A stretch of DNA of 64,000 nt. Source: Thermoanaerobaculia bacterium. GTDB lineage: Bacteria > Acidobacteriota > Thermoanaerobaculia > Gp7-AA8. The notes beneath the pieces were generated by a model that saw only the letters and a program-made list of their open reading frames with translations, did no database searches and was not told the origin of the DNA. Shown piece by piece: positions 8,922 through 23,368 of the stretch. The stretch is taken from positions 11,881-75,880 of the forward strand of contig DASUSN010000135.1 in NCBI GenBank assembly GCA_036375075.1. The letters run 5' to 3'. The position numbers and the translations under genes were made by a program. Position 1 is the stretch's first letter. Each line of letters opens with the position of its first letter.

Positions 8922-11823
8922 ACGCTTCGACGGGAACGCGGCGCGAGGACGCACGCGCGACGTAGAGGAGAGGGATGATGAGCAGCGTGCCGATGGTCGC
9001 GGTGACGAGACCGCCGGTCACGGCGATGGCCACCGCGCGGCGCAGCTCCACGCCGGGGCCGCCGAGGATGGCCAACGGGAGCATGCCGAGAATCGCGGTG
9101 ACGGTGGTCATGATGACGGGGCGGTAGCGGTCGGCGGCGGCCGCGCGCATGGCCTCGGCCGCGTCGATGCCCGTGCGGCGGAGCTGTTCGGCGCGATCCA
9201 GGAGCACGACCGTGTGGTTGACGACCACGCCGCCGAGGAAGACCAGGCCGATGAGCGACATCACGTTGAGGCTCTGGCCGGTGACGAGCAGCGCGACCAG
9301 CGCGCCCGCGGCGGCGAACGGCAGCGCGGCCATCACCAGGAGCGGCAGCCGCAGCGACTCGTAGAAGGCGGCGACGGTGAGATAGAGCAGGACGACGGCG
9401 AGCAAGCCCGCGAGCCGGAGCTGGGCGAAGGCGTCGGCGAGCTCGCGCGCGTGGCCGGTGACGCGGATGCGCTCCGTGCCGGAGACGGCCATCGCCGGAA
9501 GCTCGCCGCGGCCTTCGAAGACGAGGCGGCGCGCCGGACGGCCCTGGTCGCGGACGGCGACGGGCGTGCGCTGGGCGATGCGCGCATTCGCCAGCGCGGC
9601 CAGGGGAACCACGCGGTCGCCGTTCCGGACGGGAACCACGCGGAGGTCGTTCGGGGTGACGGGCAGCAACCGGATGGACGACTCGGCGCGGGGGATGTCG
9701 AGCTGGCCGAGGTCGGTGGTCGCGAGGGCCGCACGCACTTCGTGCTCGGGACGGGCTGCAGCCTGTCCCGGGTTCGCGTTGGACCAGCGCAGAAGCATGG
9801 CGGTCCGCAACGGTTGTTCGCCGACGCGGATGAAGCGGGCGCGTCGCATCGTCTCGATCACGCGCGCGGCGACGGCGTCGGCTTCGCGCTCGCTCGCGGC
9901 GGAGACGACGAGCTGCACGCGATCCGCGTCGCCGCTGATCGATTCGATGAAGGCGGACGGCTTCACGCGGGCCACGGCGCGGACGCCGGGGACGAGCGGC
10001 GCGCGCGTGCCTTCGATGGTGACCTTGTCGCCGTTCTGAATGAGCGAGCGAGCGCCGGGCGTCGCGCGCCACAGCTCTTCGCCGAGCCTGCGCGCGGCGC
10101 CGACGTCGAGATCGGGCGGCAACTGCGCGTCGATGACGACGGTGCGGTCGCCGCCGCGCGCGAAGAGCTCGCGCGGGAGCAGGACGCCGAGGGCGATGGC
10201 GACGGCGATGCCGGTGAACGCGATCGCGTAGGCGCGCCACGGACGCGCGGCCGTGCGCTCGAGCAGGCGGAGATACGACGCCAGGCCGGGGCTGCGCGGG
10301 CGGGTGGGCGTGGCGTCGCGCTGCGCGAGCACGGGCGTGAGCGTGAGCGAGAGCACGAGCGACGCGGCGACCGCGGCAACCACGGCCACGGCCTGTTCGC
10401 CGAAGAGCGCGCGGGCGAGACCGCGCAGGTAGAGCAGCGGCGCGAAGACGATCATCAATGTGATCGAACTGGCGACGACGGCGACCACGATCTGCTTCGT
10501 GCCCGCGGCGACGGCATCCGCCCGGCCCGCGGCGCGTGCGCTCTCGATCGACTCCAGGACGACGATGGAGTTGTCGACGAGGAGGCCCGTGGCCAGGGCC
10601 AACCCGGCGAGGGAGATGACGTCGAGCTGGATGCCGGCGAAGTAGAAGGCGCTGAAGGAGGCGAGGAGCGCGGCGGGAACGACGACCGCGAGGGCCAGCG
10701 TCGGACGCCAGACGCCGAGCATGAAGCGGAGCACGAGGGTGCCGAGCAGGACGCCGGCGAGGGCGGCGAAGCCGAGCTCGGCGAGGGCACGGGTGACCTC
10801 CCGGCTGCGGTCGGTGGTGATGTGGGCGGGGACGTGCAGGTCCGCGATCCGGGCGCGGACGGCGCGGGCGAGGGAGACGGCGTTGGCGTTGGGCGCGCGG
10901 TGGACGCGCAGGAGGACGGCGTCGGAGGATGTAGGGCGTGGCTTCAGCCCGCCCGATGTAGGGCGTGGCTTTAGCCCGCCCGATGTAGGGCGTGGCTTTA
11001 GCCCGCCCGCCCCCGGGAGAGGCGGGCTGAAGCCACGCCCTACATAGCGGGTGTCGTCGGGGACTTCGCGGAGGGATACGTCGGCGATCTCGCCGAGGGG
11101 GACGTCACGCACCAGGATCGCTTTCAGCTCTTCCACGCTGCGGACCGGCTGGGTGATGACGATGGGGCGGACGCTGGCGCCTTCGCGCACTCTTCCGGCG
11201 GCGATGGCGGTGCCGACGGTGCGGAGGCGCTCTTCCACGTCGAGCGCGGTGAGGTTGCGCGCGATGAGCGCGGCGGCGCGGGGCTGGACGACCATGCGCA
11301 GCGGCGTGGCGCCGAGGACTTCGATCTTGCCGGCGCCTTCGAGGCGGGCGAGCTCGGGAAGGACGACGCGCTCGGCGATGCGGGTGCGGGCGGCGCCGTT
11401 CGGGCCGGTGACGGCGATCTCGATCACGGGCGAGACGTCGCTGCCCGCCACTTCGATGAGCAGCTCGTCGACCGGCACCTCGGCCGCGCCTTCGATGCGG
11501 CGGGCCACGTCGATGCGCAGGCGGTCGGGGTCGATCTGCCACGCGGAGCCGAGCTCGATGCGCGACTCGCCGTCGGTGGTCTCGCTCTCGATGGAGGTGA
11601 TGCCGGGGATGGACGACAGGCGGCGCTCGATGGGCCGCGTCACGCCGTGCAGCATCTCTTCGCGCGAGCTGGCCTCGGCCTTCGCCAGGACGACGAGCTT
11701 CGGCCGCTCGATGGACGGCAGCAGCGAGAGCGGGAGCTTCGCGAGCGAGAAGAGGCCGAGGGCGCAGAGCGCGGCGGTGGCGACGAAGACCGAGACCGGG
11801 CGGCGCAGGATGGCGTCGATCAT
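8914..11823 (-). CDS. RND efflux transporter, AcrB/HAE family (969 aa including a repeat-encoded insert)
   Basis: MIDAILRRPVSVFVATAALCALGLFSLAKLPLSLLP (typical AcrB N-terminus); TM4-like GLLVDNSIVVLE; a 12-TM layout with two periplasmic halves. Its start overlaps the membrane fusion protein (MFP) stop by 4 nt. Confidence 0.9.
10929..11045. repeat. Family-B palindromic repeat (atgtagggcgtggcttcagcccgcc): three direct left arms plus one inverted arm, in-frame in the RND CDS
   Basis: Three 27-bp direct copies at 10929, 10956 and 10983, then the inverted copy ggcgggctgaagccacgccctacat ending at 11045. Total length is 117 bp (39 codons). The encoded peptide is GRGFSPPLPGAGGLKPRPTSGGLKPRPTSGGLKPRPTS. 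Confidence 0.9.
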
Positions 11824-13548: not shown

Positions 13549-16221
13549 TCACGAGGCACCTCGATACTCGACGGATTCGGTGAGACCGATGCGCGAGACG
13601 CGGTAACAGACGCGGTCGGGATCGAGCTGCAGCACGCGCGGCGCGTGCTGCGCGGAGATGACGAAGGGCACGGCCTGGGCGGAGTCGATGCGGAGCACGC
13701 GCTTGATCGCGCCGTGCTCGGTGCGCAGGACGACCGGGCAGAAGACCTCGCCGGTGCCTTCGTTGCGCAGCGTGCCGCGCACTTCCCAGCCGCCCGCCGC
13801 GCGCGTGAAGGTCACGTTCTCGAAGCTGAGCTGGGGCAGGGCCTCGCCGTCGAAGTAGTCGCGGTAGAAGCGATCGAGGTCGGCGTTCGCGCGTTTGGCG
13901 ATGGCGTCGAGGAGCTGGCGCCCGTTGCCTTCGCCCGGCATCTTCACGAAGTCGCCGATGCCCGCGGCCACGCGGTCCGCGCCGACGCGGTATTCGAGCT
14001 CGGCGAGGACCGCACGGAGCCTCGCCTGCGGCACGGCGCCGTTGCCGAGACGAAGGAGCGGATCGGTCGAGGGATGGCGGGAGACCGTGGCGTCGCGGGA
14101 CGAGCCGCCGAGGCGTGCGCGCGCGGCTTCGGCGTAGAAGCTCGTGAAGAACCAGCGCTCGGACGAAAGGACCGGACGGCGGCCGAGGAGGGCGCTGGAG
14201 ACCATCGACGCGGCGATGGCCCCGGGGGGGATGGGCTGGTGACGGATGAACATCGTCTCGGGGACCAGATAGAGGACGCCGCTGGAGCGGATGTCGGTCT
14301 CGTCGTCGCGCCATGGAATGCGCTCGCCGGGCTTCGTGGGGCGCTCGACGAAGACGCCTTTCGCTTCGATGACGCCGGGCCAGGCGCGCTCGGCGAGGGC
14401 CATCGCTTCGGTCAGCGCGGGGGCATGCGTGCGGGCAAGGGCTTCGTGGGGGCCGAGGTGGAGGAGCGTGGTGCCCGGCGCCAGCGGCATCGCGCGGAGG
14501 TGCGCGGCGGCGACGGTGTACGACGCGAGCGGGAGCGTGCAGCGTTTGCGCAGCACGCGGCCGGTGCTGCCGCAGGAATCGGCAGCGGGGAGCGAGGTGC
14601 GCAGGTCGGTCTCGATGATTGCGGGTGGGTCGTTGGGCGTCGCGTAGCGCGGCACGAGGGTGATGTCGCTCGCGGCGAGAAGCATGCGGTCCCGCGAGGC
14701 CGCGGGAACGATGCGCGAGCGGGAGAGGTCGCTCAGCTCGACGGTCGTGGTGGCGCGGAGGTAGCGGGCGTAGAGGTTCTTGAAGGGGCCGGCGCCCCGG
14801 AGGGAGAAGTCGATGGTGTCGGGGGTGCCGGAGATGTCGAAGTGCAGCGTACGGCTCTGGCCGGGTTGGATCGGCTGCGCGAGCTCGATCGTGACGTGAT
14901 CCCACGAGCGACGGATGTCCAATGTAGGGCGTGGCTTCAGCCCGCCCCCCGGTGCGCCGGTGCGGTCTCCGTGAAGGGGCCGTTCGCCCCGGGGGGGCGG
15001 GCTGAAGCCACGCCCTACATTGAACTGCAGCGCCAGCGCCGGGTGGAGCCTGAACGCCAGGTGCGATTCCGGGCGCGCTCCGCGGTTCTCGATCGCCAGC
15101 GTCGTGCGCGTACGCACTTCGCGGCCGAGGGTGCCTTCGACGCGGATCGAGCGCACCACGAGGGACTCGCTCATCGGCGCCGGCTCGCGCACCTCGGACG
15201 CATACCGCTGCGCGGCGAGCTCCTTGAAGCGCGACTCGCGCGCGAGGAGGGCGGCGAACGACGCGGCGGCGAGAGCGAGGGCCGCGAGGAACAGCAGCAC
15301 GTCGGCGCGCTGGCGGCCGGCGTCGAGGGCGTACTCCTCGCGCACGCGGTTGATGGCGCGGAGGAAGGTGCGCAGCGGATGGTCTTCGCGGATGCGCCAC
15401 GGACGGATGTCGCGCCTGGTGCGGCGAAGGAACGCGGGGGCGACGCCGAGCAGCGCGACCGCGGCGGCGAAGGTCATCATTGCGCCGGGCAGCATTGCGT
15501 CGAACGCGGCCTCGACGGGCCAGCCGCTCTCCGAGACCACGGGCAGCGACCAGTAGCCGCGCACGGTCCACACCAGCTCCTGGATCGCGCGCTCGTCGAA
15601 GGAGAGGAAGCGTCCCGGCCCGTCGAGCTTGCGGTGCGCGTACGCGAGGACGTCCTGCAGCGCGCCGAGCGCCAGCGGCAGGGCTGCGGCGAAGCCGAGG
15701 ATGGCCAGGATGGGGCGGCCGGTGATCGTGCCGAGGGCGAGCATCGCCGCGGAGACCGCGAGGAGCACCGGCAGCACCTGCAGCAGCCAGGTCCAGACGA
15801 ACGGCATCAGGCCCGCCGGCGACCGCTGGGCGTGTACGGCGAGCGCCGCGCCGGCGAGCTGCGGAAGGAAGGTCACGGGCACGGCCAGGACGACGATCGC
15901 GAGCCAGCGGTGCAGCACGTAGCCGGCCGCGCTGAGCGGCGCGAGGGAGACCACGGCGAACGAGCTCTCCTCGCGCTCGCGGGTGATGGCGTCGATGGCC
16001 ACCGCGCCGGCGAAGAGGGTGGTGAACAGCGGCTGGAAGAGCATCAGCGCGGCGGCGTAGCTCGCGGGGCCGACGACGTATTCGGCGCGCGCGGCGACGA
16101 TCTTCACCACCACCGCGGGCGCCGCCGCGAGCGCGACGTAGGCGACCGCCGCCAGCCGGAAGCGCGCGGCGCGCACCTGCGTGAGCCACTCGTGCGCGAG
16201 GAAAGCGCGGAAGAGCGTCAT
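13549..16221 (-). CDS. ABC-2 permease fused to an M1-aminopeptidase-like extracytoplasmic domain (no intact HExxH seen)
   Basis: 890 aa. The N-terminal multi-TM region carries the ITREREESSF motif, followed by a large soluble C-terminal domain. HEALA occupies the position where HExxH would be expected. Its start overlaps the ATPase stop by 4 nt. Confidence 0.75.
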   Translation of the reverse strand: MTLFRAFLAHEWLTQVRAARFRLAAVAYVALAAAPAVVVKIVAARAEYVVGPASYAAALMLFQPLFTTLFAGAVAIDAITREREESSFAVVSLAPLSAAGYVLHRWLAIVVLAVPVTFLPQLAGAALAVHAQRSPAGLMPFVWTWLLQVLPVLLAVSAAMLALGTITGRPILAILGFAAALPLALGALQDVLAYAHRKLDGPGRFLSFDERAIQELVWTVRGYWSLPVVSESGWPVEAAFDAMLPGAMMTFAAAVALLGVAPAFLRRTRRDIRPWRIREDHPLRTFLRAINRVREEYALDAGRQRADVLLFLAALALAAASFAALLARESRFKELAAQRYASEVREPAPMSESLVVRSIRVEGTLGREVRTRTTLAIENRGARPESHLAFRLHPALALQFNVGRGFSPPPRGERPLHGDRTGAPGGGLKPRPTLDIRRSWDHVTIELAQPIQPGQSRTLHFDISGTPDTIDFSLRGAGPFKNLYARYLRATTTVELSDLSRSRIVPAASRDRMLLAASDITLVPRYATPNDPPAIIETDLRTSLPAADSCGSTGRVLRKRCTLPLASYTVAAAHLRAMPLAPGTTLLHLGPHEALARTHAPALTEAMALAERAWPGVIEAKGVFVERPTKPGERIPWRDDETDIRSSGVLYLVPETMFIRHQPIPPGAIAASMVSSALLGRRPVLSSERWFFTSFYAEAARARLGGSSRDATVSRHPSTDPLLRLGNGAVPQARLRAVLAELEYRVGADRVAAGIGDFVKMPGEGNGRQLLDAIAKRANADLDRFYRDYFDGEALPQLSFENVTFTRAAGGWEVRGTLRNEGTGEVFCPVVLRTEHGAIKRVLRIDSAQAVPFVISAQHAPRVLQLDPDRVCYRVSRIGLTESVEYRGAS
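14922..15020. repeat. Family-B palindromic repeat, in-frame in the permease/M1-like CDS
   Basis: atgtagggcgtggcttcagcccgcc ... ggcgggctgaagccacgccctacat; 99 bp (33 codons). The encoded peptide is VGRGFSPPPRGERPLHGDRTGAPGGGLKPRPT. Confidence 0.9.
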
Positions 16222-16952
16222 CGCGCGGCCTCCAGCTCGCGCGCGTACGCTTCCTCGAGCGTCTCGGCGCGGCCGTGCTTCGCCATCAACGCGCCGGGCG
16301 CGCCGTCGAAGACGAGCGTGCCGCCGGTGAGGACGCCCACGCGGTCGCAGGTGGCCTCGATGTCCTCGCAGATGTGCGTCGACAGGAGCACCGCTACCTC
16401 ATCCGACGCCTCGGCAATGAGATTGCGGAAGCGGATGCGCTCCTCCGGGTCCAGCCCCGCGGTGGGCTCGTCGATGACCAGCAGTTTCGGCGCGTGGATC
16501 AGGGCCTGGGCGATGCCGAGGCGGCGGCGCATGCCGCCGGAGTAGCCGCCGGCGGCGCGGCCGGCCGCGTCCTGGAGCTCCACCGCCTCGAGGAGCTGGC
16601 GCGCGCGGCGGTCGATCTCCTTCCGCGTCAATCCCACGGCCCGGATCCGCGCGCAGTGCACGAGGTACTCGAAACCGGTCAGGTGGCGGATGGGATGGAA
16701 GTCCTGCGGCAGATAGCCGATGGAGCGGCGGATCTCCGCGCGCGCCGCCGGTTGGGCCGGGTCCCGGCCGTCGTACGAGCGCGCGCCGGCGCTGGGCTCC
16801 ACGGCCAGGACGAGGATGGACAGGAGCGTGGTCTTGCCCGCGCCGTTGGGCCCGAGCAGGCCGAACATGCCCTCGCCGAGCGAGAGGTCGATCCCGCGGA
16901 GGGCAATGTGCCCATCCGACCAGGTCTTGGCGAGGCCGCGCAGCTCGATCAT
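16218..16952 (-). CDS. ABC transporter ATP-binding protein
   Basis: Internal ATG 16952 gives MIELRGLAKTW. Walker A GPNGAGKTT, signature YSGGMRRR, Walker B LLVIDEPT. Confidence 0.9.
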   Translation of the reverse strand: MIELRGLAKTWSDGHIALRGIDLSLGEGMFGLLGPNGAGKTTLLSILVLAVEPSAGARSYDGRDPAQPAARAEIRRSIGYLPQDFHPIRHLTGFEYLVHCARIRAVGLTRKEIDRRARQLLEAVELQDAAGRAAGGYSGGMRRRLGIAQALIHAPKLLVIDEPTAGLDPEERIRFRNLIAEASDEVAVLLSTHICEDIEATCDRVGVLTGGTLVFDGAPGALMAKHGRAETLEEAYARELEAAR

Positions 16953-16968
16953 GGTGTGCTTGATGATT

Positions 16969-16997
16969 AGTGTACTAATGCGATAATACAGTGTCAA
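16969..16997 (-). promoter_or_regulatory. Sigma70-like promoter for the ABC/RND operon
   Basis: The minus strand reads TTGACA (16997..16992), a 17-nt spacer, then TACACT (16974..16969). This sits 17 nt upstream of ATG 16952, in a short AT-rich gap. Confidence 0.5.
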
Positions 16998-17000
16998 GCA

Positions 17001-17111
17001 CCCCTGTCATCCTGAGCCGCGTAGACGGCGAAGGATCCCCCGATTTGCGCGCTGCTCGTGCTACCGGCAGGGGGTCCTTCGCCGCGCTTCGCCGGCTCAG
17101 GATGACAGGGG
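17001..17111. repeat. Family-A palindromic repeat (cctgtcatcctgagc...gctcaggatgacagg), about 110 bp
   Basis: cccctgtcatcctgagccgcgtagacggcgaaggatcccc ... ggggtccttcgccgcgcttcgccggctcaggatgacagggg. Further copies lie at 43067 and 53774. Confidence 0.9.
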
Positions 17112-17118
17112 AACCGGG

Positions 17119-19563
17119 CTATGTTCCGGCGTAGAGGACGAACGGCGCCCAGAACTGCGGGCGGCGGCCACGGCCCGTGCCGCGGACGAACTGCAGCTTG
17201 GCCTCGCGCAGCGCCACGGCCGGGTCTTTGCCCGCGCCGATGCCCGCGTACATGCGGTCCATCAGCCGCGGAGTCTCCGCGTCGTTGACTTCCCAGAGCG
17301 CGGCGATGACCTGGTCGGCGCCGGCCTTGAGAAAGGCCCACGCGAGACCGACCACGCCCTCCCCTTCATAGGTCCGCGTGCCGGCCCCGTGGCAACTGGA
17401 GATGGTCACGAGGCGCGCCGTGAGCGGGTGGCCGGCGACGTCGCGGGCGAGGAGCTTGTACTGCGCCGAGGGGTCGCGGGCGAGGATGACCGCGGAATCG
17501 AGGGGTCGCTTGCGCGTGGCCTCGCCGTGGGCGACGAAGTGCAGGTAGTCGAACTTCTCCGGCGCGGCGGACCGGTACGCGGCGGGTGTGGCGCTCGCGC
17601 CTTCCAGCACCTTCCGCCGCGCGAACCGCTTCGCGATCGCGCGCATCTCCTCGGCCGCGAACGGCAGCGGCAGATACGGCGCGGGCGAGGGCGCGTTGCC
17701 GACGAGCAGCAGCTGGGGCGCCGGGGCGGGCTTGCGCGCGGCGCGCGCGAGGAGCTGCAGCGAGCCGGCGTTCATGAGCACGACGTCCTCGATCCAGTAG
17801 CGCTGCGGCGACGGCGCGACGAGAGTCTCGAAGTTCAGCGCATGAAGGCGGCCGTCGGCGACGACGATCACGCGCGAGCCGTTCGGGATCGACGGGAGCG
17901 CCGGGCGGACGAGCATCTCGAAGAGCGCCTGCCCGCGCGCGCCGCTCATCTGCATCGACCCGCGCGGCCCGACGAGGTCTCGCGCATACGCCTCGGCCGC
18001 TTTCTCGATGGTGGTATCGGGCGGCAGCGTCTCGAGGCGGACGCCGTTCCTGGTGACGACCCACAGATACGAGCGATCGCGGCCGAGCCAGTAGCAGAGG
18101 ATGGTGGCGTCGTTCTGGCGTGCGATCGCCCGGGCGTCGAGCTCGGCGCGGACGCCCAGTCCTTCTTCGAGGAGCTGGGCGCGGCTGGTCTCGGTGACGG
18201 CGAGAGCATCCTCGACGCGGTTGGCGCGGACGAGGAAGTCGACGTACTGGCCGAAGATCTCGGCGCTGGTGTTGGCGAGCGAGAAGCGCAGGTCGGCGTT
18301 GGTGACCTCGGCGCCAGCCTCGGCCGCGGCGGCGATGGCGCGCCGGAACTGCGCCTCGGCGAGGTCGGGCCGGTTGGTGCGCACGTAAAGCTGGGCGAGC
18401 TCTCCGAGGGCCTCGGTCCGGGTGAGAGCGCGCTTGGTGTCGCGCAGGACCTCGGCGAGCAGCTTCGCCGCGTCGTCGTATTTGCGCTCCTCCACGACGA
18501 GGATGTGCGCGTCGAGGATGTACGAGCGCAGCTCGGCCTCGCGATCGTTCCGTTTGTGCTGCAGGGCCTCCCTGTTCAGGCGCCGGGCGTCGTCGAAACG
18601 GCCTGTCGCGATGGCGATGCGGGCGAGGTTGGCGAGCGCGAACCCGAGCTGCGTGTGACCCGTCTCGCGTGCGAGGGTGACGGCCTCTTCGTTGAACGCC
18701 TTGGCGCCGGCCCAGTCGCGCCGTTCCTCCCGGATGTTGCCGAGCTGAATGAGCCACGACACGCGAGTGCGCTTCGAGCCCAGGCGCCGGGCCGCCGCTT
18801 CCGCACTGGTGAACAACTGCAGCGCGGTCTCATAGTCGCCGAGCTCGCGGTAGGCCCAGCCGAGGTTGCCTTCGATCTGCTCGATCGTCTTGGCGATGCC
18901 GACGGCCCGCGCGAGGGTGAGGGCCTGCTCGCCCCACTCCACGGACTCGGCAAAGCGGCCGGCGGCCGCGAGCTCGAACGCGAGCGCGGCCATGGCCTTC
19001 GCTTCGACGGTCTTCCGGCGGTGCTGCCGGGCGAGGCGGATGGCCTCGCGGGCCTGCTGCTGGCGATCCTGCGGAGCGATGCGCGTGAGCGCGAAGTAGA
19101 TGTCGGCCAGAGCCGCGGGACGGCGCGCGGCGGCGAGCGCCCTCGCGGTCTCGAGGAGCTCGCGCGCCTCCGCGACTTTGTCCGTGCGGTTCAGCGCGAA
19201 GGCACGCATGACCGCGTGCTGGAACGCGGTCTCACTGGTGCGCAGAGACGGCGGCATCTCGAACGCGAGGACCTGGGCGGCGGTCTTCCAGTCGCCGAGG
19301 CCTTCGTACGCTTCGCCGCGCATCACGCGCAGCGCCCAGACGTCCTCGGAAGGGCGCGAGCCGAAGCGCTTCAGCGTGTCGTCGATGAGGGCCAGGGCGG
19401 CGGTGTAGTCGCCGCGGTCGATGGCGATGCGGGCGGCGCGGGCGGCGGCGCGCTCGGATGCGGGAGCTGATGGCTGTGACGCCATTGGCGCTGCCGGCGC
19501 TCCGAGTAAGACGAGCGCCAGCAGCGGCACGAGGATTCGTCTAAGGCTCGATCGGCGTCCCAT
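17119..19563 (-). CDS. TPR-repeat CHAT-domain (caspase-like) protease with an N-terminal export signal
   Basis: 814 aa. N-terminus MGRRSSLRRILVPLLALVLLGAPAAP. A long TPR-like region (ALALIDDTLKRF..., AYRELGDYETALQLF...) is followed by a C-terminal CHAT domain with DYLHFVAHGE (His) and LVTISSCHGAG (Cys). Confidence 0.9.
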   Translation of the reverse strand: MGRRSSLRRILVPLLALVLLGAPAAPMASQPSAPASERAAARAARIAIDRGDYTAALALIDDTLKRFGSRPSEDVWALRVMRGEAYEGLGDWKTAAQVLAFEMPPSLRTSETAFQHAVMRAFALNRTDKVAEARELLETARALAAARRPAALADIYFALTRIAPQDRQQQAREAIRLARQHRRKTVEAKAMAALAFELAAAGRFAESVEWGEQALTLARAVGIAKTIEQIEGNLGWAYRELGDYETALQLFTSAEAAARRLGSKRTRVSWLIQLGNIREERRDWAGAKAFNEEAVTLARETGHTQLGFALANLARIAIATGRFDDARRLNREALQHKRNDREAELRSYILDAHILVVEERKYDDAAKLLAEVLRDTKRALTRTEALGELAQLYVRTNRPDLAEAQFRRAIAAAAEAGAEVTNADLRFSLANTSAEIFGQYVDFLVRANRVEDALAVTETSRAQLLEEGLGVRAELDARAIARQNDATILCYWLGRDRSYLWVVTRNGVRLETLPPDTTIEKAAEAYARDLVGPRGSMQMSGARGQALFEMLVRPALPSIPNGSRVIVVADGRLHALNFETLVAPSPQRYWIEDVVLMNAGSLQLLARAARKPAPAPQLLLVGNAPSPAPYLPLPFAAEEMRAIAKRFARRKVLEGASATPAAYRSAAPEKFDYLHFVAHGEATRKRPLDSAVILARDPSAQYKLLARDVAGHPLTARLVTISSCHGAGTRTYEGEGVVGLAWAFLKAGADQVIAALWEVNDAETPRLMDRMYAGIGAGKDPAVALREAKLQFVRGTGRGRRPQFWAPFVLYAGT

Positions 19564-20395
19564 TCCCCTCGCCAGAACCGAGAGTCATTGAACCACCGGT
19601 CGGCGCGTCGTCCAAGCTCTCGCCGGGAGGACCATCCTGGTTCCTGAGGCTGAAGGCGATCGGCATGGCGCCTTCGCGCTGGGGAAGGCCGAAGTTGACC
19701 CGGATCAGATTCAGGCGGCGCCGCCCGGGCTTCAGCATCAGCTCCGCGAAACGGACGGTGCCGAGGCCGGGAACCGGGATCACCGGCGACCGCGGTGCAG
19801 GGTCGAGGCCTTCGATGGCGCCGACCAGGGAGCCCTGCACCGGTTTGCGCTCCGCCACCAGCCTCGCGAGCTCGTCGGGAGTGGCGTCGAAGCGGTTCGC
19901 CAGGGCGCCGCGCGTATCGGGCCCGCCTTTGCGGGACGGCACGAGCGCCTTGGCGAGGTCGTCATAGCGGGAGAGCGAAGCGAGGTGCGCGTCGAGTCTC
20001 GGGTGAACCCGCTTCCCGTCGATGCGGACGTCGCGGTAGAAAATGTCGATGTGGAAGGGGTGGTCGTCGCCGCCCTCGAAGCCGCGCGTGGACGTGACGG
20101 TGGAGCCCATCTCGGCGACGGTGATGCGGCCGAAGATGTTCACGTCTTTCATGAAGACGTAGGTCGAGGTGGTGAACTGCGCGTCCACGCCCCTTCCGGT
20201 CTGGCGACCGTAGACGCGCGTTTCGGCGTGCGAGAACGAGAGCTCCTGCGAGACATAGTTCGCGACGACGGAGCGTCCCTCGCCGCCCGTCGGCGCAAGA
20301 GCGACTGAAGCGAGACTGGGGATGGTGTACGTGACGGGGCCGCGCTCGATGATTCCTCCAGCGCCGAGCGCACTGGCGTTGTACGCGAAAAACAT
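19541..20395 (-). CDS. Hypothetical protein, 284 aa, no recognisable domain and no signal peptide
   Basis: Strong Shine-Dalgarno (SD) site: aaggagggagaa immediately before ATG 20395. Composition is protein-like. The 3' end overlaps the CHAT gene start by 23 nt. Confidence 0.75.
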   Translation of the reverse strand: MFFAYNASALGAGGIIERGPVTYTIPSLASVALAPTGGEGRSVVANYVSQELSFSHAETRVYGRQTGRGVDAQFTTSTYVFMKDVNIFGRITVAEMGSTVTSTRGFEGGDDHPFHIDIFYRDVRIDGKRVHPRLDAHLASLSRYDDLAKALVPSRKGGPDTRGALANRFDATPDELARLVAERKPVQGSLVGAIEGLDPAPRSPVIPVPGLGTVRFAELMLKPGRRRLNLIRVNFGLPQREGAMPIAFSLRNQDGPPGESLDDAPTGGSMTLGSGEGNGTPIEP

Positions 20396-20430
20396 TTCTC
20401 CCTCCTTGCGTGGACCGTTGCGTGAAGCGG

Positions 20431-21099
20431 TTAGCGACGTACGAGGAACCGGTACGTGGCGAGGTCGGTTTGCCTGCCGCCTTGGTCGAAGCCGACGATC
20501 ACCAGCTCATGAGCGCCCGCGGACAGGCCGCTGACGCTCAAAGACGTGGGCTCTCCATTGGGGTCCGGGGTCACGGGAACGGTGAGAGACGGGCCGCCGG
20601 GCCGCTGGATGCGCGCCTCGTAACGGGAGTACGCCGGATCGACGGGAACGTCGAGCACGAGGTCGTTCCGGACCTTGCCGTCCAGCACGGGAACGTCGCC
20701 GGCCCCGCGGGAGGCCTCGAGGAGGAACGAGTGCTGCCTCGTCTGTTCCACGGACGGACCCACGGACACCCCGGTTGCCGGGCGCAGGCGGAGGAGCAGC
20801 GGCGTGGTCACGGCGAGCACGAGCGCGGCGGCAACGGCGGCGGGAAGCCAGGCGGTGCGGCGGGGGCGGTGCTGGTCGAGACGCACGACCTTCGGCTCCT
20901 CGGGAGCGGCGGCTTCGCGGGCCATGCCGTGACCGCCGTTCATGAAGCGGAGACCGACGCGGAGCTCGTCCGCACAGTCGGCGCAGTCGAAAAAGTGCTC
21001 CTCGAAGGCGTCGGCCTCCGCGGCGGTGAGCTCGCCCAGGAGGTAGCGGTCGGTCGCGTAGGCGGCGGTAGCTTCTGAGTGGTCCATACCTTCTCTCAC
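20431..21099 (-). CDS. Anti-sigma factor, zf-HC2 (ZAS) type, single TM, with a periplasmic C-terminal domain
   Basis: H-x3-C-x2-C in EEHFFDCADCADEL; TM segment WLPAAVAAALVLAVTTPLLL. The GTG start at 21099 overlaps the sigma gene stop as GTGA. Confidence 0.85.
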   Translation of the reverse strand: MREGMDHSEATAAYATDRYLLGELTAAEADAFEEHFFDCADCADELRVGLRFMNGGHGMAREAAAPEEPKVVRLDQHRPRRTAWLPAAVAAALVLAVTTPLLLRLRPATGVSVGPSVEQTRQHSFLLEASRGAGDVPVLDGKVRNDLVLDVPVDPAYSRYEARIQRPGGPSLTVPVTPDPNGEPTSLSVSGLSAGAHELVIVGFDQGGRQTDLATYRFLVRR

Positions 21100-21689
21100 A
21101 CCTGTAGTGACGTAGGACCGCCAAACGTTTCAAAAATCGACATGCGGCCGCTTTTGCGGCGGAGATAGTGCGCTTTGAACTTCTCCTTGGCGCGGTGCAC
21201 GAGGACGCGGAGGTAGTCGCGCTCGACGCCGAAACGGCGGCAGATCTCGGCCTTGTCGGCCTCTTCGAGGAAGACGGCGCGGAGGATGGCGGAGTCGCGG
21301 TCGTCGAGCGTCTCGAGGACGCGGCGGACGCGGGCGCTGTTGCGGGCGCTGTCGAGCGCGGCGTCCATGCTGTCGTTCATGGCGATCTCGGACTGGTCGT
21401 CGAGAGACTCCGTCCGCCCCTCGGCGCGGTAGTACTCCATCAGCACGCGGTTGCAGATGGCGTTGACGAAAGCGCCGAGCTTGCGGGAGTCCTGAAGCTG
21501 CTCGAGGTTGGCGATGCAGCGGGTGAAGACTTCCTGGCGCACCTCGTCGATGGCCTCGAGCGTGCGCAGACGGCGGCGGAGCTTGAGCAGGAGGAGGTCG
21601 CGGAAATAGGCGTGGAAGTGCGCTGCCGTCTCCCGATCGCCCTCGCGCAAGCGCCGCACGTACTCGTCATCGAAGACGAACAGTTCCAT
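21096..21689 (-). CDS. ECF (sigma-70 family group 4) RNA polymerase sigma factor
   Basis: Internal ATG 21689 of ORF 21096..21875 gives MELFVFDDEYVRRL. Region 2-like EVRQEVFTRCI...FVNAICNRVLMEYYR; region 4-like DRDSAILRAVFLEEADKAEICRRFGVERDYLRVLVHRAKEKF. Confidence 0.85.
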   Translation of the reverse strand: MELFVFDDEYVRRLREGDRETAAHFHAYFRDLLLLKLRRRLRTLEAIDEVRQEVFTRCIANLEQLQDSRKLGAFVNAICNRVLMEYYRAEGRTESLDDQSEIAMNDSMDAALDSARNSARVRRVLETLDDRDSAILRAVFLEEADKAEICRRFGVERDYLRVLVHRAKEKFKAHYLRRKSGRMSIFETFGGPTSLQV

Positions 21690-21714
21690 TCTGGTGTCTT
21701 TGTACTTTACTACC

Positions 21715-22155
21715 TCACGGCTGGAGGCGGCGGAGGATCTTGCGGATGTTGGCGTGGCCGGCGGCGACGTCGATGTCGCGCTGGAGCAGGGGGACGTAGC
21801 GGGTGCTGAAGTCGGCGTCGGCGGTGCTGCCGAAGTGGCGCTCGAGCCGCGCGGCGATGGCGTCGACGTCGGCACGCTCGAAGTCGGTGCGGGACATGGT
21901 GTCGAGGTCGACGATGATCGACGTCAGCGGCCGGAGCCATTCGAAGAAGGGATCTTCCTGGAGGAGGCGCAGCAGGTGCGTGGGGCCGCTGACGGGACCG
22001 ATGGTGGCGCTGTACTCGGCGCTGGCGGCATCGATGAGGGCGCGGTGGAGGGGCATGAGCTGCTTCCACGCATCGCGCAGGGCGGCGCGCAGCTCGGCGC
22101 GCGCAGGATCGTCGGGCGTATGCATCATCCGCGCGTAGAGGTCTTCTTTCTTCAT
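21715..22155 (-). CDS. Hypothetical protein, 146 aa, first gene of the sigma/CHAT cluster
   Basis: ORF with protein-like composition (MKKEDLYARMMHTPDDPARAEL...). It is co-oriented with the sigma gene and ends 25 nt upstream of its start. Confidence 0.65.
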   Translation of the reverse strand: MKKEDLYARMMHTPDDPARAELRAALRDAWKQLMPLHRALIDAASAEYSATIGPVSGPTHLLRLLQEDPFFEWLRPLTSIIVDLDTMSRTDFERADVDAIAARLERHFGSTADADFSTRYVPLLQRDIDVAAGHANIRKILRRLQP

Positions 22156-22312
22156 GGGGAAAATCGCGTCAGCGATCGAAAAATCACGCCTCCACGGTTG
22201 GCTGGGGAAGGGTTGGGTAGGCAGTTAGCCAACCGTAGAGGCCGTGAAAGCTGTGAATGTGCTGCAGCCCAGGAGCACCAAGGATACGCTCCAACATTTG
22301 TGCCCGCAATAG

Positions 22313-22391: not shown

Positions 22392-22468
22392 GCACCCATA
22401 GCTCAATTGGATAGAGCATCTGACTACGGATCAGAAGGTTTGAGGTTCGAGTCCTCATGGGTGCACCA
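22392..22468 (+). tRNA. tRNA-Arg (anticodon ACG), CCA encoded
   Basis: Hand-folded cloverleaf: acceptor GCACCCA/TGGGTGC, anticodon stem TCTGA/TCAGA with loop CTACGGA, T-arm TGAGG-TTCGAGT-CCTCA. Confidence 0.95.
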
Positions 22469-22522
22469 ACCCCTTCAAGTGAACCGCGGCGGGCTTCGGC
22501 CCGCCGTCGTACTCTTTGACAG

Positions 22523-22992
22523 ATGAATCAGGTGCAGTGGCAGGCAGAAGCGATGGAAGCGGCCTTCGCCCTGGCCGCGGAAGCCGCCTCCGACGGGGAG
22601 ATCCCGGTGGGCGCGGTGATCGTGGACGGCGAAGGACGGATCCTGGGGCGGGGACGGAACCGGCGCGAGTCGGGAGACCCGCTGGGCCACGCCGAGATCT
22701 ACGCGATCGCGGAAGCGGCGCGGAGCATCGGCGGCTGGCGGCTGGAAGGGACGACGATGGTGGTGACGCTGGAACCGTGCGCGATGTGCGCGGGGGCTCT
22801 GGTGAACGCCCGGGTCGACCGTCTGGTCTTCGGGGCCTACGATCCCAAGGCGGGCTTTTGCGGCTCGCTGGGGAACCTGGTGCAGGACGCACGGCTCAAC
22901 CATCGCCTCGCAGTCGAAGGCGGTTTCATGGAGGAGCGGTCGCGCGCGATGCTTCAGGACTTCTTCCGCCAACTGCGCCAGCGCGATCGAAC

Positions 22993-23014
<22 letters not shown>
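22523..23014 (+). CDS. tadA: tRNA-specific adenosine deaminase TadA
   Basis: Deaminase motifs HAEIYAI and TLEPCAMCAGAL; 163 aa. The last 22 nt overlap tRNA-Ser(CGA). Confidence 0.9.
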
Positions 23015-23086
<72 letters not shown>

Positions 23087-23113
23087 CGCTAGTCCGATTC
23101 GGCTTCCCAAGCC

Positions 23114-23204
23114 GGAGAGATGGCCGAGTGGCTTAAGGCGCACGCTTGGAAAGCGTGTGTACGTTAACAGCGTACCGTGGGTTCGAATCCCACTCTCTCC
23201 GCCA
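23114..23204 (+). tRNA. tRNA-Ser (anticodon GGA), long variable arm, CCA encoded
   Basis: Acceptor GGAGAGA/TCTCTCC, anticodon stem CACGC/GCGTG with loop TTGGAAA, T-loop GGTTCGAATCC. Confidence 0.95.
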
Positions 23205-23235
23205 TCGGGCAGCACCGAGACACGATTCAAATTCA

Positions 23236-23368
23236 GGCCCGTTGAGATGAGCCCGGGTCCTGTGCAGCAGGAGCACCGAACCGCGTCAGGACCGGAAGGT
23301 AGCAGCGCTAAGGTGCCATCCCTGTGTGACACAGTAAGGCCTGGGCTCTTCTCAGCGGGTCTTTTTTT
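23236..23368 (+). ncRNA. ffs: Signal recognition particle RNA (small/4.5S type) with its terminator T-run
   Basis: Conserved domain-IV core GTCAGGACCGGAAGGTAGCAGCGCTAAGG. The 5' ggcccgttgagatgagcccggg pairs with the 3' cctgggctcttctcagcgggtc, followed by ttttttt. The position before dnaX is the classical synteny. Ends are accurate to about 10 nt. Confidence 0.85.

What the first reader, a model, noticed from the sequence alone, without database searches (positions are those of the whole stretch)
17119..22155. CRISPR-less ECF sigma / anti-sigma / orphan protein / TPR-CHAT protease module resembling the Craspase (type III-E) signalling arm
Seen in sequence: five tightly packed co-directional genes encode a hypothetical 146-aa protein, an ECF sigma, a zf-HC2 anti-sigma, an orphan 284-aa protein and an 814-aa TPR-CHAT protease. 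The gene junctions are a 25-nt gap, a GTGA overlap, a 35-nt gap and a 23-nt overlap. The CHAT domain has an intact His...Cys dyad (FVAHGE / SSCHGAG). Established knowledge: in type III-E CRISPR loci a TPR-CHAT protease (Csx29) cleaves Csx30, and Csx30/Csx31 sequester an ECF sigma factor (RpoE). Inference: this locus has the same logic (caspase-like protease + small unknown protein + sigma/anti-sigma pair) but no gRAMP/Cas7-11 gene, no other cas gene and no array anywhere in 64 kb. It could therefore be a free-standing protease-gated ECF switch in which the CHAT enzyme cleaves either the anti-sigma factor or the 284-aa protein. Unlike Csx29, this CHAT protein starts with an RR + hydrophobic export-like signal. 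That suggests site-1-type cleavage of the anti-sigma periplasmic domain, a mechanism I do not know to be described for CHAT proteases.
Basis: partly seen in the sequence, partly recalled or inferred. Interest (0 to 1): 0.75.

Follow-up and report, generated by a model that had tools for sequence, protein, structure and literature searches.

The report
Sigma-factor switch with exported CHAT protease
A four-gene cassette conserved in soil Acidobacteria joins a sigma/anti-sigma gene switch to a secreted caspase-like protease and a protein with no recognisable fold; it looks like a split version of the recently described Myxococcus DdvA anti-sigma factor, not a CRISPR leftover.

Summary
The conserved unit has four genes, not five: ECF sigma, zinc-finger single-pass anti-sigma, DUF8256 (the "orphan") and a Sec-exported TPR-CHAT protease. 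These four are syntenic in every Thermoanaerobaculia/Acidobacteriota locus with enough sequence, including paralogous and tandem copies. The 146-aa gene belongs to a separate unit (a conserved RNA hairpin plus p146) that also occurs without the cassette.

Nothing links the cassette to type III-E Craspase by homology:
- Csx29 model 21 bits against a cut-off of 300.
- No array or large cas-like gene in the window.
- DUF8256 and p146 match no solved structure.
- The CHAT protein is periplasmic.

The closest solved relative of the CHAT domain is M. xanthus DdvA, an anti-sigma factor with a fused periplasmic TPR-CHAT. A site-1 protease role was already proposed for DdvA in 2024. My best reading is therefore a split DdvA-like switch, in which the exported CHAT cleaves the anti-sigma ectodomain in trans (inferred, about 0.4).

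DUF8256 is a confident new-fold protein. It is fused N-terminally to CHAT domains elsewhere, so it is a CHAT partner, but it has no export signal here. Its role is unresolved. This is a new variant of a known kind, of moderate interest.

The parts
21096..21689 (-). Divergent ECF sigma factor (197 aa), first gene of the cassette
   Evidence: TIGR02937 sigma70-ECF scores 46.1 bits against a cut-off of 42.9. Pfam regions 2 and 4 hit weakly. Best PDB match is SigW, 4.6e-5. Present in every related locus that reaches it.
21703..21714 (-). GGTAGTAAAGTA: a -10-like motif (TAAAGT) at a fixed distance upstream of the sigma ATG; probably the cassette's own promoter with a very short leader
   Evidence: (T)TGCAGTAAAGTA or a TAnnnT variant (TATTAT, TACTAT, TACAGT, TACCAT) sits at the same distance from the ATG in all 28 loci. 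This includes copies that lack p146. Sequence verified. Promoter function is inferred.
20431..21099 (-). Class-I zinc-binding (ZAS) anti-sigma factor (222 aa): cytoplasmic H35-x3-C39-x2-C42, one TM helix (residues about 82-103), and a periplasmic domain of about 115 aa that I read as beta-rich from its sequence
   Evidence: zf-HC2 4.9e-6. HxxxCxxC is invariant and there is one hydrophobic segment at about residue 81 in 28 homologues. GTGA overlap with the sigma gene.
19541..20395 (-). DUF8256 (PF26784) protein (284 aa): cytoplasmic, mostly beta, no detectable structural relative; a CHAT-associated protein
   Evidence: PF26784 in precomputed annotation. AF2 pLDDT 91.2, pTM 0.87. No Foldseek match with E<=1e-3 in PDB or BFVD. 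No PDB sequence match. No signal peptide or TM segment. Fused N-terminally to CHAT domains in P0375, P0383-P0387 and P0410.
17119..19563 (-). Exported TPR-CHAT caspase-like protease (814 aa); the start overlaps the DUF8256 stop by 23 nt
   Evidence: CHAT 3.5e-50 plus TPR_12 and TPR_MalT. The overlap is exactly 23 nt in 15 of 29 loci and 23-59 nt in 26 of 29. Closest solved CHAT domain is DdvA 8ROT_B, E 1e-4.
19480..19563 (-). Signal peptide of the CHAT protein (MGRRSSLRRILVPLLALVLLGAPAAPMA)
   Evidence: A basic n-region, a hydrophobic core and an Ala-rich c-region are seen in all 29 homologues. RR is not conserved. L031 has a lipobox LIGC. SignalP was not run.
17392..17529 (-). Catalytic dyad codons: H679 (17529..17527) and C724 (17394..17392)
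   Evidence: Verified by translation. Both residues are invariant in 29 of 29 homologues.
17001..17111 (.). Nested perfect inverted repeat (19-nt and 15-nt arms) that fills the gap after the CHAT gene; marks the 3' end of the cassette
   Evidence: Sigma-70-like promoter matches for the downstream ABC gene follow at 17010-16969. The ABC genes are present in only 4 related loci.
21715..22155 (-). p146: conserved helical-bundle protein, an adjacent neighbour but not part of the cassette
   Evidence: AF2 pLDDT 90, with only generic helical-bundle matches. Absent from paralogous cassette copies. Present without the cassette in 12 of 23 metagenome loci that have room for it.
22179..22243 (-). Ultra-conserved RNA hairpin (15-16 bp stem, 25-nt C-rich loop, U-run) in the p146 leader; belongs to the p146 unit, not the cassette
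   Evidence: z -3.9; 15 pairs; one compensatory change and several one-sided changes that keep pairing. No Rfam family. 80 of 85 metagenome occurrences with room are followed by p146.

Best explanation
This is a four-gene envelope-signalling cassette that works as a split version of the Myxococcus DdvS/DdvA system.

Proposed mechanism:
1. The ECF sigma is held at the membrane by a single-pass zinc-binding anti-sigma factor.
2. The TPR-CHAT protease is exported by Sec to the periplasm. Its TPR array senses a protein signal.
3. Its His-Cys site then clips the anti-sigma factor's periplasmic domain or juxtamembrane linker in trans (site-1 cleavage).
4. A site-2 protease of the RseP type and cytoplasmic proteases then free the sigma.

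DUF8256 is a cytoplasmic, translationally coupled, dedicated partner of the CHAT protease. It is most simply an inhibitor or chaperone-like "prodomain in trans", analogous to staphostatins, which guard the cytoplasm against secreted staphopains. Its role is the weakest part of the model.

Shown here: gene content, conservation, topology signals, the intact dyad, the DdvA relationship, and the DUF8256-CHAT fusions.

Inferred: every cleavage step, the signal, the regulon, and the role of DUF8256.
For: - The order sigma, anti-sigma, DUF8256, CHAT is kept wherever the contig reaches the genes in all 27 genome loci. It is also kept in metagenome loci down to about 27-35% DUF8256 identity, in paralogous copies and in a tandem duplicate.
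- The cassette is cleanly present or absent between p146 and the same downstream genes.
- The anti-sigma factor has an invariant HxxxCxxC motif, one TM segment and a periplasmic domain.
- The CHAT protein has a conserved signal peptide and an invariant dyad.
- With a CHAT-domain-only profile, the only significant PDB hit is DdvA (8ROT_B, E 1e-4, aligned across H862 and C907). Csx29 scores E 0.45.
- In DdvA the same three elements (ZAS domain, TM helix, periplasmic TPR-CHAT) are one polypeptide. That is a Rosetta-stone argument that anti-sigma and TPR-CHAT act together. Its authors showed RseP-dependent degradation once the TPR-CHAT is removed, and they proposed CHAT as the site-1 protease.
- Distance-matrix correlation is highest for anti-sigma against CHAT after controlling for sigma (partial r 0.54, against 0.35 and 0.31). 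This is weak evidence.
- DUF8256 is linked to CHAT in two ways. The genes overlap in 26 of 29 loci, by exactly 23 nt in 15. There are also at least two fusion lineages with DUF8256 at the N-terminus and CHAT at the C-terminus.
- The sigma gene has its own -10-like motif and no ECF-type promoter. This fits post-translational control of the sigma.
Against: - No cleavage has been shown, here or for DdvA. In DdvA, catalytic mutants had no phenotype under the conditions tested.
- DUF8256 has no export signal, yet it is the protein most tightly coupled to the exported CHAT. In the fusion proteins both domains are cytoplasmic, so a direct DUF8256-CHAT interaction in this cassette needs a pre-export step (inhibitor or chaperone), which is speculative.
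- No staphostatin or other inhibitor fold was detected.
- A DUF8256 homologue next to an HNH gene, with no CHAT gene called beside it on that short contig, does not fit an inhibitor role.
- CHAT and DUF8256 could simply be products of the sigma's regulon.
- No RseP gene, regulon or signal was identified.
- Signal peptides were judged by eye and by hydropathy, not with SignalP.
Confidence: 0.42

Rival explanations
1. Output model. The anti-sigma factor senses the signal through its own periplasmic domain. The CHAT protease and DUF8256 are effectors whose expression the sigma drives: a periplasmic protease for envelope remodelling or defence, plus a cytoplasmic effector. They are not regulators of the sigma.
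For: ECF operons often carry their own regulon members downstream. The anti-sigma factor has a folded periplasmic domain of about 115 aa that could sense on its own. DUF8256 and CHAT also occur together as fusions with no sigma gene nearby, so the pair has a sigma-independent function.
Against: The only conserved promoter-like element of the operon is a housekeeping-type -10 motif, not an ECF-type promoter. The fusion of ZAS anti-sigma with TPR-CHAT in DdvA argues for physical cooperation. The four genes are never found separated in more than 30 loci.
Confidence: 0.25
2. Guard model (RseB-like). The periplasmic TPR-CHAT binds the anti-sigma ectodomain and protects it from another site-1 protease, or acts as a co-sensor. 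Its own proteolytic activity is directed at the incoming signal protein rather than at the anti-sigma factor.
For: In DdvA the bulky TPR-CHAT sterically blocks RseP, and its removal leads to degradation. TPR arrays are protein-binding modules. Anti-sigma and CHAT distances co-vary.
Against: The invariant dyad in 29 of 29 homologues shows that catalysis is under selection, but it does not say on what substrate. No other protease gene is conserved in the cassette.
Confidence: 0.13
3. Craspase-like cytoplasmic cascade. The CHAT protease cleaves the 284-aa protein, as Csx29 cleaves Csx30, and the fragment modulates the sigma/anti-sigma pair.
For: DUF8256 is the tightest CHAT partner, by gene overlap and by fusions. 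It has a low-confidence, length-variable linker (residues about 240-265) before a conserved C-terminal strand, which would suit a cleavage site.
Against: The compartments differ: there is a conserved signal peptide on the CHAT and none on DUF8256. There is no homology to Csx29, Csx30 or Csx31. No gRAMP gene or array is present.
Confidence: 0.07
4. Effector pair. DUF8256 is a latent toxic or pore-forming effector activated by its CHAT protease, analogous to the bacterial gasdermin/protease pairs. The sigma/anti-sigma pair only controls its dosage.
For: DUF8256 has a large meander beta structure with a conserved C-terminal strand after a flexible linker. DUF8256 is fused to CHAT in proteins whose CHAT-domain relatives carry other N-terminal domains such as HEAT repeats. 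One homologue lies next to an HNH nuclease gene.
Against: There is no gasdermin or pore-former match in PDB and no PADLOC hit. The strands are not membrane-like by my reading of the sequence. The cassette sits in a vertically inherited housekeeping neighbourhood (tadA, dnaX, recR) rather than a defence island. The compartment problem of the previous rival also applies.
Confidence: 0.1

Closest known systems
DdvS/DdvA of Myxococcus xanthus (ECF sigma plus a transmembrane ZAS anti-sigma factor with a fused periplasmic TPR-CHAT; PDB 8ROT/8RW5; PMC11506125)
   Same: Both have an ECF sigma gene followed by a ZAS (HxxxCxxC) single-pass anti-sigma factor. Both have a periplasmic TPR-CHAT with an intact His-Cys dyad. 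DdvA is the best solved match of this CHAT domain (E 1e-4). The site-1/RseP logic proposed for DdvA would apply here.
   Different: - Here the TPR-CHAT is a separate, signal-peptide-bearing protein, so cleavage would be in trans between two proteins rather than autoproteolysis within a dimer.
- The anti-sigma factor keeps its own periplasmic domain of about 115 aa.
- A DUF8256 gene lies between the two genes.
- The phylum is Acidobacteriota. DdvA-like fusions were reported only in Myxococcota and one Comamonas.
- There is no CBASS or CRISPR neighbourhood.
- Sequence similarity is marginal (25 bits).
Type III-E Craspase arm (Cas7-11/gRAMP, Csx29 TPR-CHAT, Csx30, Csx31, RpoE)
   Same: A TPR-CHAT protease is encoded with an ECF sigma and small unknown proteins. 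The general logic of a protease relieving sigma inhibition is shared.
   Different: - No gRAMP gene or CRISPR array was found.
- The Csx29 model scores 21 bits against a cut-off of 300.
- Csx29 is cytoplasmic and RNA-activated, whereas this CHAT is exported.
- DUF8256 and p146 show no structural similarity to any PDB chain, including Craspase-Csx30 entries.
- The anti-sigma factor here is a classical membrane ZAS protein.
Classical regulated intramembrane proteolysis of anti-sigma factors (RseA/DegS/RseP; RsiW/PrsW/RasP). Stated from general knowledge and from the summary in PMC11506125.
   Same: A single-pass anti-sigma factor has an extracytoplasmic domain, and a dedicated extracytoplasmic protease is the presumed trigger.
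   Different: The candidate site-1 enzyme is a caspase-fold CHAT cysteine protease rather than a serine protease or metalloprotease. It is encoded in the same operon. The extra cytoplasmic DUF8256 component has no counterpart.
CalpL-CalpT-CalpS (type III CRISPR Lon protease / anti-sigma / ECF sigma) and the SAVED-CHAT cascades. Stated from general knowledge; bioRxiv 10.1101/2023.06.23.546230 was listed.
   Same: A protease cleaves an anti-sigma-like partner to release an ECF sigma.
   Different: Those systems are cytoplasmic, activated by cyclic oligoadenylate and linked to CRISPR. No SAVED or CARF domain, or Lon protease, is present here.
ECF54 group (ECF sigmas with CHAT, subtilase or carboxypeptidase genes in their context and no anti-sigma factor; PMC8999054, PMC7826278)
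   Same: An ECF sigma is genomically associated with a CHAT protein.
   Different: ECF54 is actinobacterial and is defined by the lack of an anti-sigma factor. This cassette has a canonical ZAS anti-sigma factor.
Staphopain/staphostatin-type pairs (a secreted cysteine protease with a co-transcribed cytoplasmic beta-barrel inhibitor). Stated from general knowledge.
   Same: A signal-peptide-bearing cysteine protease is co-transcribed with a beta-rich protein that lacks a signal peptide.
   Different: No sequence or structural similarity to staphostatins was detected. DUF8256 is much larger (284 aa). This is an analogy only.

Membership tests
Type III-E Craspase signalling arm | Adjacent gRAMP/Cas7-11 effector gene and CRISPR array | tested here: not met
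   No CRISPR-like tandem array in 64 kb. Nine long ORFs were scanned: seven are efflux, protease, spermidine-synthase-like or TonB-type and two have no Pfam hit. Gene lists of related loci show none. Not every ORF in the window was scanned.
Type III-E Craspase signalling arm | The TPR-CHAT protein is a Csx29 orthologue (NCBIfam NF041237, cut-off 300 bits) | tested here: not met
   21 bits, E 1.3e-4, restricted to the catalytic core. The CHAT-domain profile against Csx29 chains gives E 0.45.
Type III-E Craspase signalling arm | Cytoplasmic protease | tested here: not met
   An N-terminal Sec-type signal peptide is conserved in 29 of 29 homologues. SignalP was not run.
Type III-E Craspase signalling arm | Csx30 and Csx31 homologues as substrate or partners | tested here: not met
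   High-confidence AF2 models of DUF8256 and p146 give no Foldseek hit with E<=1e-3 in PDB. No profile hit either. Csx31 may lack a solved structure, so that half of the test is weaker.
DdvS/DdvA-type TPR-CHAT anti-sigma system | ECF sigma gene directly upstream of a ZAS (HxxxCxxC) single-pass anti-sigma factor | tested here: met
DdvS/DdvA-type TPR-CHAT anti-sigma system | Periplasmic TPR-CHAT with a His-Cys dyad, related to the DdvA CHAT domain | tested here: met
   Signal peptide. Dyad invariant. DdvA 8ROT_B is the only significant PDB hit of the CHAT-domain profile, E 1e-4, aligned across H862. The similarity is marginal.
DdvS/DdvA-type TPR-CHAT anti-sigma system | TPR-CHAT fused to the anti-sigma factor in one polypeptide (dimeric, autoproteolysis in trans proposed) | tested here: not met
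   These are separate genes with DUF8256 between them in all loci. The cassette is therefore a split variant, not a member in the strict sense.
RIP-controlled ECF sigma/anti-sigma pairs | Site-1 cleavage of the ectodomain, followed by a site-2 (RseP/M50) protease | not testable with these tools
   No biochemical data. An RseP gene was not searched for outside the long ORFs of the window.
Bacterial gasdermin-protease pairs | Gasdermin fold of the protease-adjacent protein | tested here: not met
   No gasdermin among the Foldseek PDB matches; best E 3.5e-3 with TM scores of 0.2 or lower. No PADLOC hit.
ECF54 | No anti-sigma factor; Actinobacteria | tested here: not met
   A ZAS anti-sigma factor is present. 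The lineage is Thermoanaerobaculia.
Pfam PF26784 (DUF8256) | Match to the family model | tested here: met
   The precomputed Pfam annotation of the window's own protein and of nearly all listed homologues is PF26784. The local Pfam copy lacks the model.

The most novel reading that the evidence does not exclude
DUF8256 may be a new fold that acts as a dedicated partner of CHAT caspase-like proteases. It could be a new class of protease-activated effector (a gasdermin-like analogue) or a new class of cytoplasmic caspase inhibitor or prodomain. If so, the cassette would be a natural two-protein system in which a periplasmic caspase-fold enzyme performs site-1 cleavage of an anti-sigma factor in trans. 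That would give the first tractable test of the mechanism only hypothesised for DdvA.
Probability: 0.2. Interest if true: 0.8.

Novelty: new variant of a known kind. Interest (0 to 1): 0.55.

Why it matters
The only characterised anti-sigma factor with a TPR-CHAT domain (DdvA) could not be shown to self-cleave, because its signal is unknown and protease and substrate are one chain. In this cassette protease and substrate are separate proteins. The CHAT-as-site-1-protease idea can therefore be tested by simple co-expression of wild type against C724A.

The finding extends periplasmic caspase-like signalling from Myxococcota to a large, uncultured soil class (Thermoanaerobaculia). It also gives a first functional context, CHAT partnership, to DUF8256, a family of more than 900 sequence clusters with a confidently predicted fold that has no detectable relative.

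It also removes a false lead. The cassette is not a degenerate type III-E system.

Tried and rejected
- Gasdermin, Csx30 or Csx31 identity of DUF8256 or p146. Rejected: Foldseek against PDB and BFVD gave nothing with E<=1e-3, and TM scores of about 0.2 or lower for DUF8256. A profile search of PDB sequences gave only chance-level hits.
- Defence-system identity. PADLOC found nothing relevant for the four cassette proteins.
- Tat export with DUF8256 hitch-hiking. Rejected because the RR motif is not conserved among CHAT leaders.
- ECF54 membership. Rejected.
- p146 as a Csx31-like or anti-anti-sigma component. Rejected as a cassette member, because RNA hairpin plus p146 occurs without the cassette and cassette copies occur without p146.
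- A single-sequence PDB search with the whole CHAT protein was swamped by TPR hits. Only the CHAT-domain-only profile was informative.
- Search for an ECF-type autoregulatory promoter. None was evident. The pattern TTGCNGTANNNT has no exact match in the window.
- Mirror-tree analysis gave only weak discrimination.
- Rfam has no family for the p146 leader hairpin.
- Clustering of flanking ORFs was noisy because of spurious high-GC ORFs, but it showed three downstream contexts.

Full report
**Observation**

The five minus-strand ORFs exist exactly where stated:
- p146: 22155..21715
- sigma: 21689..21096
- anti-sigma: 21099..20431
- 284-aa protein: 20395..19541
- 814-aa TPR-CHAT: 19563..17119

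The junctions are +25, -4 (GTGA), +35 and -23 nt. Pfam gives CHAT at 3.5e-50 with several TPR families, and zf-HC2 at 4.9e-6 for the anti-sigma factor. The sigma lies below Pfam's region 2 and region 4 cut-offs, but it passes NCBIfam TIGR02937 sigma70-ECF (46.1 against 42.9 bits). It is therefore a divergent ECF sigma. H679 in FVAHGE and C724 in SSCHGAG are correct. The window has no CRISPR-like array. Of the nine long ORFs I scanned, seven are RND/ABC/HlyD efflux proteins, a subtilase, spermidine-synthase-like proteins and a TonB-type outer-membrane protein, and two have no Pfam hit. None has a Cas-type domain.

**Conservation and limits of the unit**

The 284-aa protein is not an orphan. It has 252 relatives among 90%-identity clusters, nearly all annotated PF26784 (DUF8256), and the named ones come from Thermoanaerobaculia or Acidobacteriota. 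A full HMMER scan of 1.84 billion representatives finds 903 at E<=1e-3 and 90 at E<=1e-30.

A scan of one genome per species returned 27 loci, all Thermoanaerobaculia or Acidobacteriota MAGs. Wherever the contig reaches them, sigma, anti-sigma, DUF8256 and CHAT lie in the same order on one strand. The same holds in metagenome loci whose DUF8256 is only distantly related.

Further points on the unit:
- One genome has two copies 50 kb apart (L017 and L021), and another has a tandem duplicate (L028).
- p146 is missing from the paralogous copies (L020, L021, L025, L029, the second L028 copy) and from L036.
- p146 with its conserved leader occurs without the four genes in 12 of 23 metagenome loci that have at least 2.5 kb of downstream sequence.
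- In six of those 12 loci p146 is followed by the same genes that follow the CHAT gene in cassette-bearing genomes: a gene of about 145 aa on the opposite strand and NUDIX, with LigD_N in five of them (compare).

The cassette is thus a discrete four-gene unit, present or absent between p146 and its neighbours.

The sigma gene also has its own conserved -10-like motif, (T)TGCAGTAAAGTA or a TAnnnT variant. It sits at a fixed distance from the ATG in all loci, including those without p146. A nested perfect inverted repeat closes the cassette after the CHAT gene. The downstream ABC genes are present in only four loci and have their own promoter-like sites.

**Anatomy of the four proteins**

*Anti-sigma factor.* It has an invariant H-x3-C-x2-C motif, one hydrophobic segment near residue 81, and a periplasmic domain of about 115 aa with a conserved LPAGxYELVIEGVRxDGN motif.

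*CHAT protease.* All 29 homologues begin with a basic n-region, a hydrophobic core and an Ala-rich c-region. One has a lipobox. The twin arginine of the window's copy is not conserved, so this is a Sec-type signal rather than a Tat signal. The dyad is invariant in 29 of 29.

*DUF8256.*
- It has no signal peptide and no hydrophobic segment. Its N-terminus is conserved from residue 3, and the ORF cannot be extended upstream.
- AlphaFold2 with 66 sequences gives pLDDT 91.2 and pTM 0.87. The model is a long meander of beta hairpins with a helical insert (residues 136-181).
- A low-confidence, length-variable linker (about 240-265) precedes a conserved C-terminal strand.
- Foldseek finds nothing with E<=1e-3 in PDB or BFVD, with TM scores of about 0.2 or lower. 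A profile search of PDB sequences finds nothing credible.

*p146.* It is a confident helical bundle with only generic matches.

**Relationship to known systems**

The Csx29 model scores 21 bits against a cut-off of 300. PADLOC recognises no defence component among the four cassette proteins. With a profile restricted to the CHAT domain, the only significant PDB hit is 8ROT chain B (E 1e-4). The alignment runs across the catalytic His862. Csx29 chains score E 0.45.

8ROT is M. xanthus DdvA-DdvS. DdvA is a ZAS anti-sigma factor whose periplasmic part is a TPR-CHAT. Its authors showed RseP-dependent degradation of DdvA once the TPR-CHAT is removed. They proposed, without demonstration, that the CHAT domain is the site-1 protease. 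They found DdvA-like fusions only in Myxococcota and one Comamonas.

The present cassette contains the same parts as separate proteins. It is therefore best described as a split DdvA-like system. The fusion in Myxococcota is Rosetta-stone evidence that anti-sigma and TPR-CHAT act together. ECF54, the other ECF group linked to CHAT genes, is actinobacterial and lacks an anti-sigma factor. No paper mentions DUF8256, and only the DdvA paper combines a periplasmic TPR-CHAT with a sigma factor.

**The DUF8256 puzzle**

DUF8256 is the protein most tightly coupled to the CHAT gene. The two genes overlap in 26 of 29 loci, by exactly 23 nt in 15 of them.

In other lineages a complete DUF8256 domain is fused to the N-terminus of a CHAT domain. 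Examples are P0375 and P0383-P0387 (837-899 aa) and, independently, P0410 (908 aa). The three sequences I read (P0375, P0385, P0410) have HG and C dyad motifs and no signal peptide. Relatives of that CHAT moiety carry other N-terminal domains such as HEAT repeats, and no sigma gene is nearby. One homologue lies next to an HNH gene with no CHAT gene called beside it on that short contig.

DUF8256 is therefore a CHAT-associated module in general. In this cassette, however, the CHAT is exported and DUF8256 is not. The simplest reconciliation is a cytoplasmic inhibitor or chaperone acting before export, analogous to staphostatins. An effector role cannot be excluded. Distance-matrix correlations slightly favour anti-sigma/CHAT co-evolution (partial r 0.54 against 0.35 and 0.31), but this is weak.

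**Mechanism proposed**

My confidence in this mechanism is about 0.4.
1. A housekeeping-type promoter transcribes the four genes.
2. The sigma is sequestered by the ZAS anti-sigma factor.
3. The exported TPR-CHAT senses a periplasmic protein signal and cleaves the anti-sigma ectodomain or linker in trans.
4. A site-2 protease and cytoplasmic proteases then release the sigma.
5. DUF8256 guards or escorts the protease in the cytoplasm.

All cleavage steps, the signal and the regulon are inferred. The rivals are the output model, the RseB-like guard model, the Craspase-like cascade and the effector pair. Each is listed with its refuting experiment.

**Verdict**

The Craspase interpretation fails its membership tests and survives only as a loose analogy. 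The site-1 idea is plausible but was already proposed for DdvA.

What is new:
- the split, two-protein architecture;
- its wide occurrence in an uncultured acidobacterial class;
- the link between a new-fold DUF and CHAT proteases.

This is a new variant of a known kind, with interest about 0.55.

Noticed in passing
window 22179-22294 (minus strand), upstream of p146: A non-coding element that is almost invariant. It has a 15-16 bp stem (GGCCTCTACGGTTGGC / GCCAACCGTGGAGGC), a 25-nt C-rich loop and a U-run, and it ends 15-31 nt before the p146 ATG. It is more conserved than the coding DNA around it. The fold z-score is -3.9. There is one compensatory change and there are several one-sided changes that keep pairing. 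No Rfam family matches. The 3' arm contains GGAGG, so it may sequester a ribosome-binding site, or it may be an sRNA or terminator. An exact-pattern scan found 89 metagenome loci; 80 of 85 with room carry p146 directly downstream.
   Followed up: partly
window 21715-22155 (p146) and loci L040, L042, L045, L047, L054, L064, L071, L072, L092, L099, L107, L120: p146 is a highly conserved helical-bundle protein of unknown function: 667 clusters, 54-90% identity among the genome loci, and down to 48% in the cassette-less loci. With its leader hairpin it forms an independent unit that also occurs in genomes lacking the sigma-CHAT cassette.
   Followed up: partly
window 21703-21714; L001 and L028 upstream of the ABC gene: Promoter-like elements in this lineage look like TTGC-N2-TAnnnT (TTGCAGTAAAGT before sigma; TTGCGGTATCCT or TTGCTGTAGACT before the p146 leader; TTGACActgTACTAT before the ABC gene). 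A TTG element lies almost next to the -10 box, and there is no Shine-Dalgarno sequence before the sigma ATG. This may be an unusual promoter architecture or a very short leader.
   Followed up: partly
P0375, P0383-P0387, P0410 (locus L035): Proteins of 837-908 aa with an N-terminal DUF8256 domain and a C-terminal CHAT domain. The three sequences read have no signal peptide, and L035 has no sigma gene nearby. Relatives of the CHAT part carry HEAT repeats or other N-terminal domains instead.
   Followed up: partly
L038:5995-7536 and L039:5252-6793: A 345-aa DUF8256 homologue with a C-terminal helical extension, followed at once by a 167-aa HNH-domain gene. No CHAT or sigma gene is called on these contigs of about 7-8 kb.
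   Followed up: no
L028:1245-11251; L017 and L021 (same contig CAWGEI010000005.1): There is a tandem duplication of the four-gene cassette in one genome, and two copies about 50 kb apart in another. Only one copy per genome is preceded by p146.
   Followed up: partly
window 17001-17111: A nested perfect inverted repeat (19-nt arms 73 nt apart, enclosing 15-nt arms) fills the 121-nt gap between the CHAT and ABC genes. It could be a terminator or a REP/MITE-like element.
   Followed up: no
window 13549-16997: An ABC ATPase (DrrA-like) is followed by an 890-aa protein with no Pfam or NCBIfam hit. The pair recurs after the cassette in L001, L018 and L028 (46-74% identity) but not elsewhere.
   Followed up: no
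window 10928-11009: Three near-perfect tandem copies of a 27-nt unit (98% matches). They lie under the AcrB-like ORF on the opposite strand.
   Followed up: no
window 22392-23349: A cluster of RNA genes lies next to the cassette: tRNAs at 22392-22465, 22993-23079 and 23114-23201, and SRP RNA at 23251-23349. The cytidine/adenosine-deaminase-fold gene I call tadA lies among them, followed by dnaX, ybaB and recR. This neighbourhood is conserved upstream of the cassette in most related loci.
   Followed up: no
window 19541-20395: The local Pfam-A copy returns no family for this protein, whereas the precomputed annotation lists PF26784 (DUF8256). A negative result from the local Pfam scan therefore does not mean the protein is absent from current Pfam.
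   Followed up: yes
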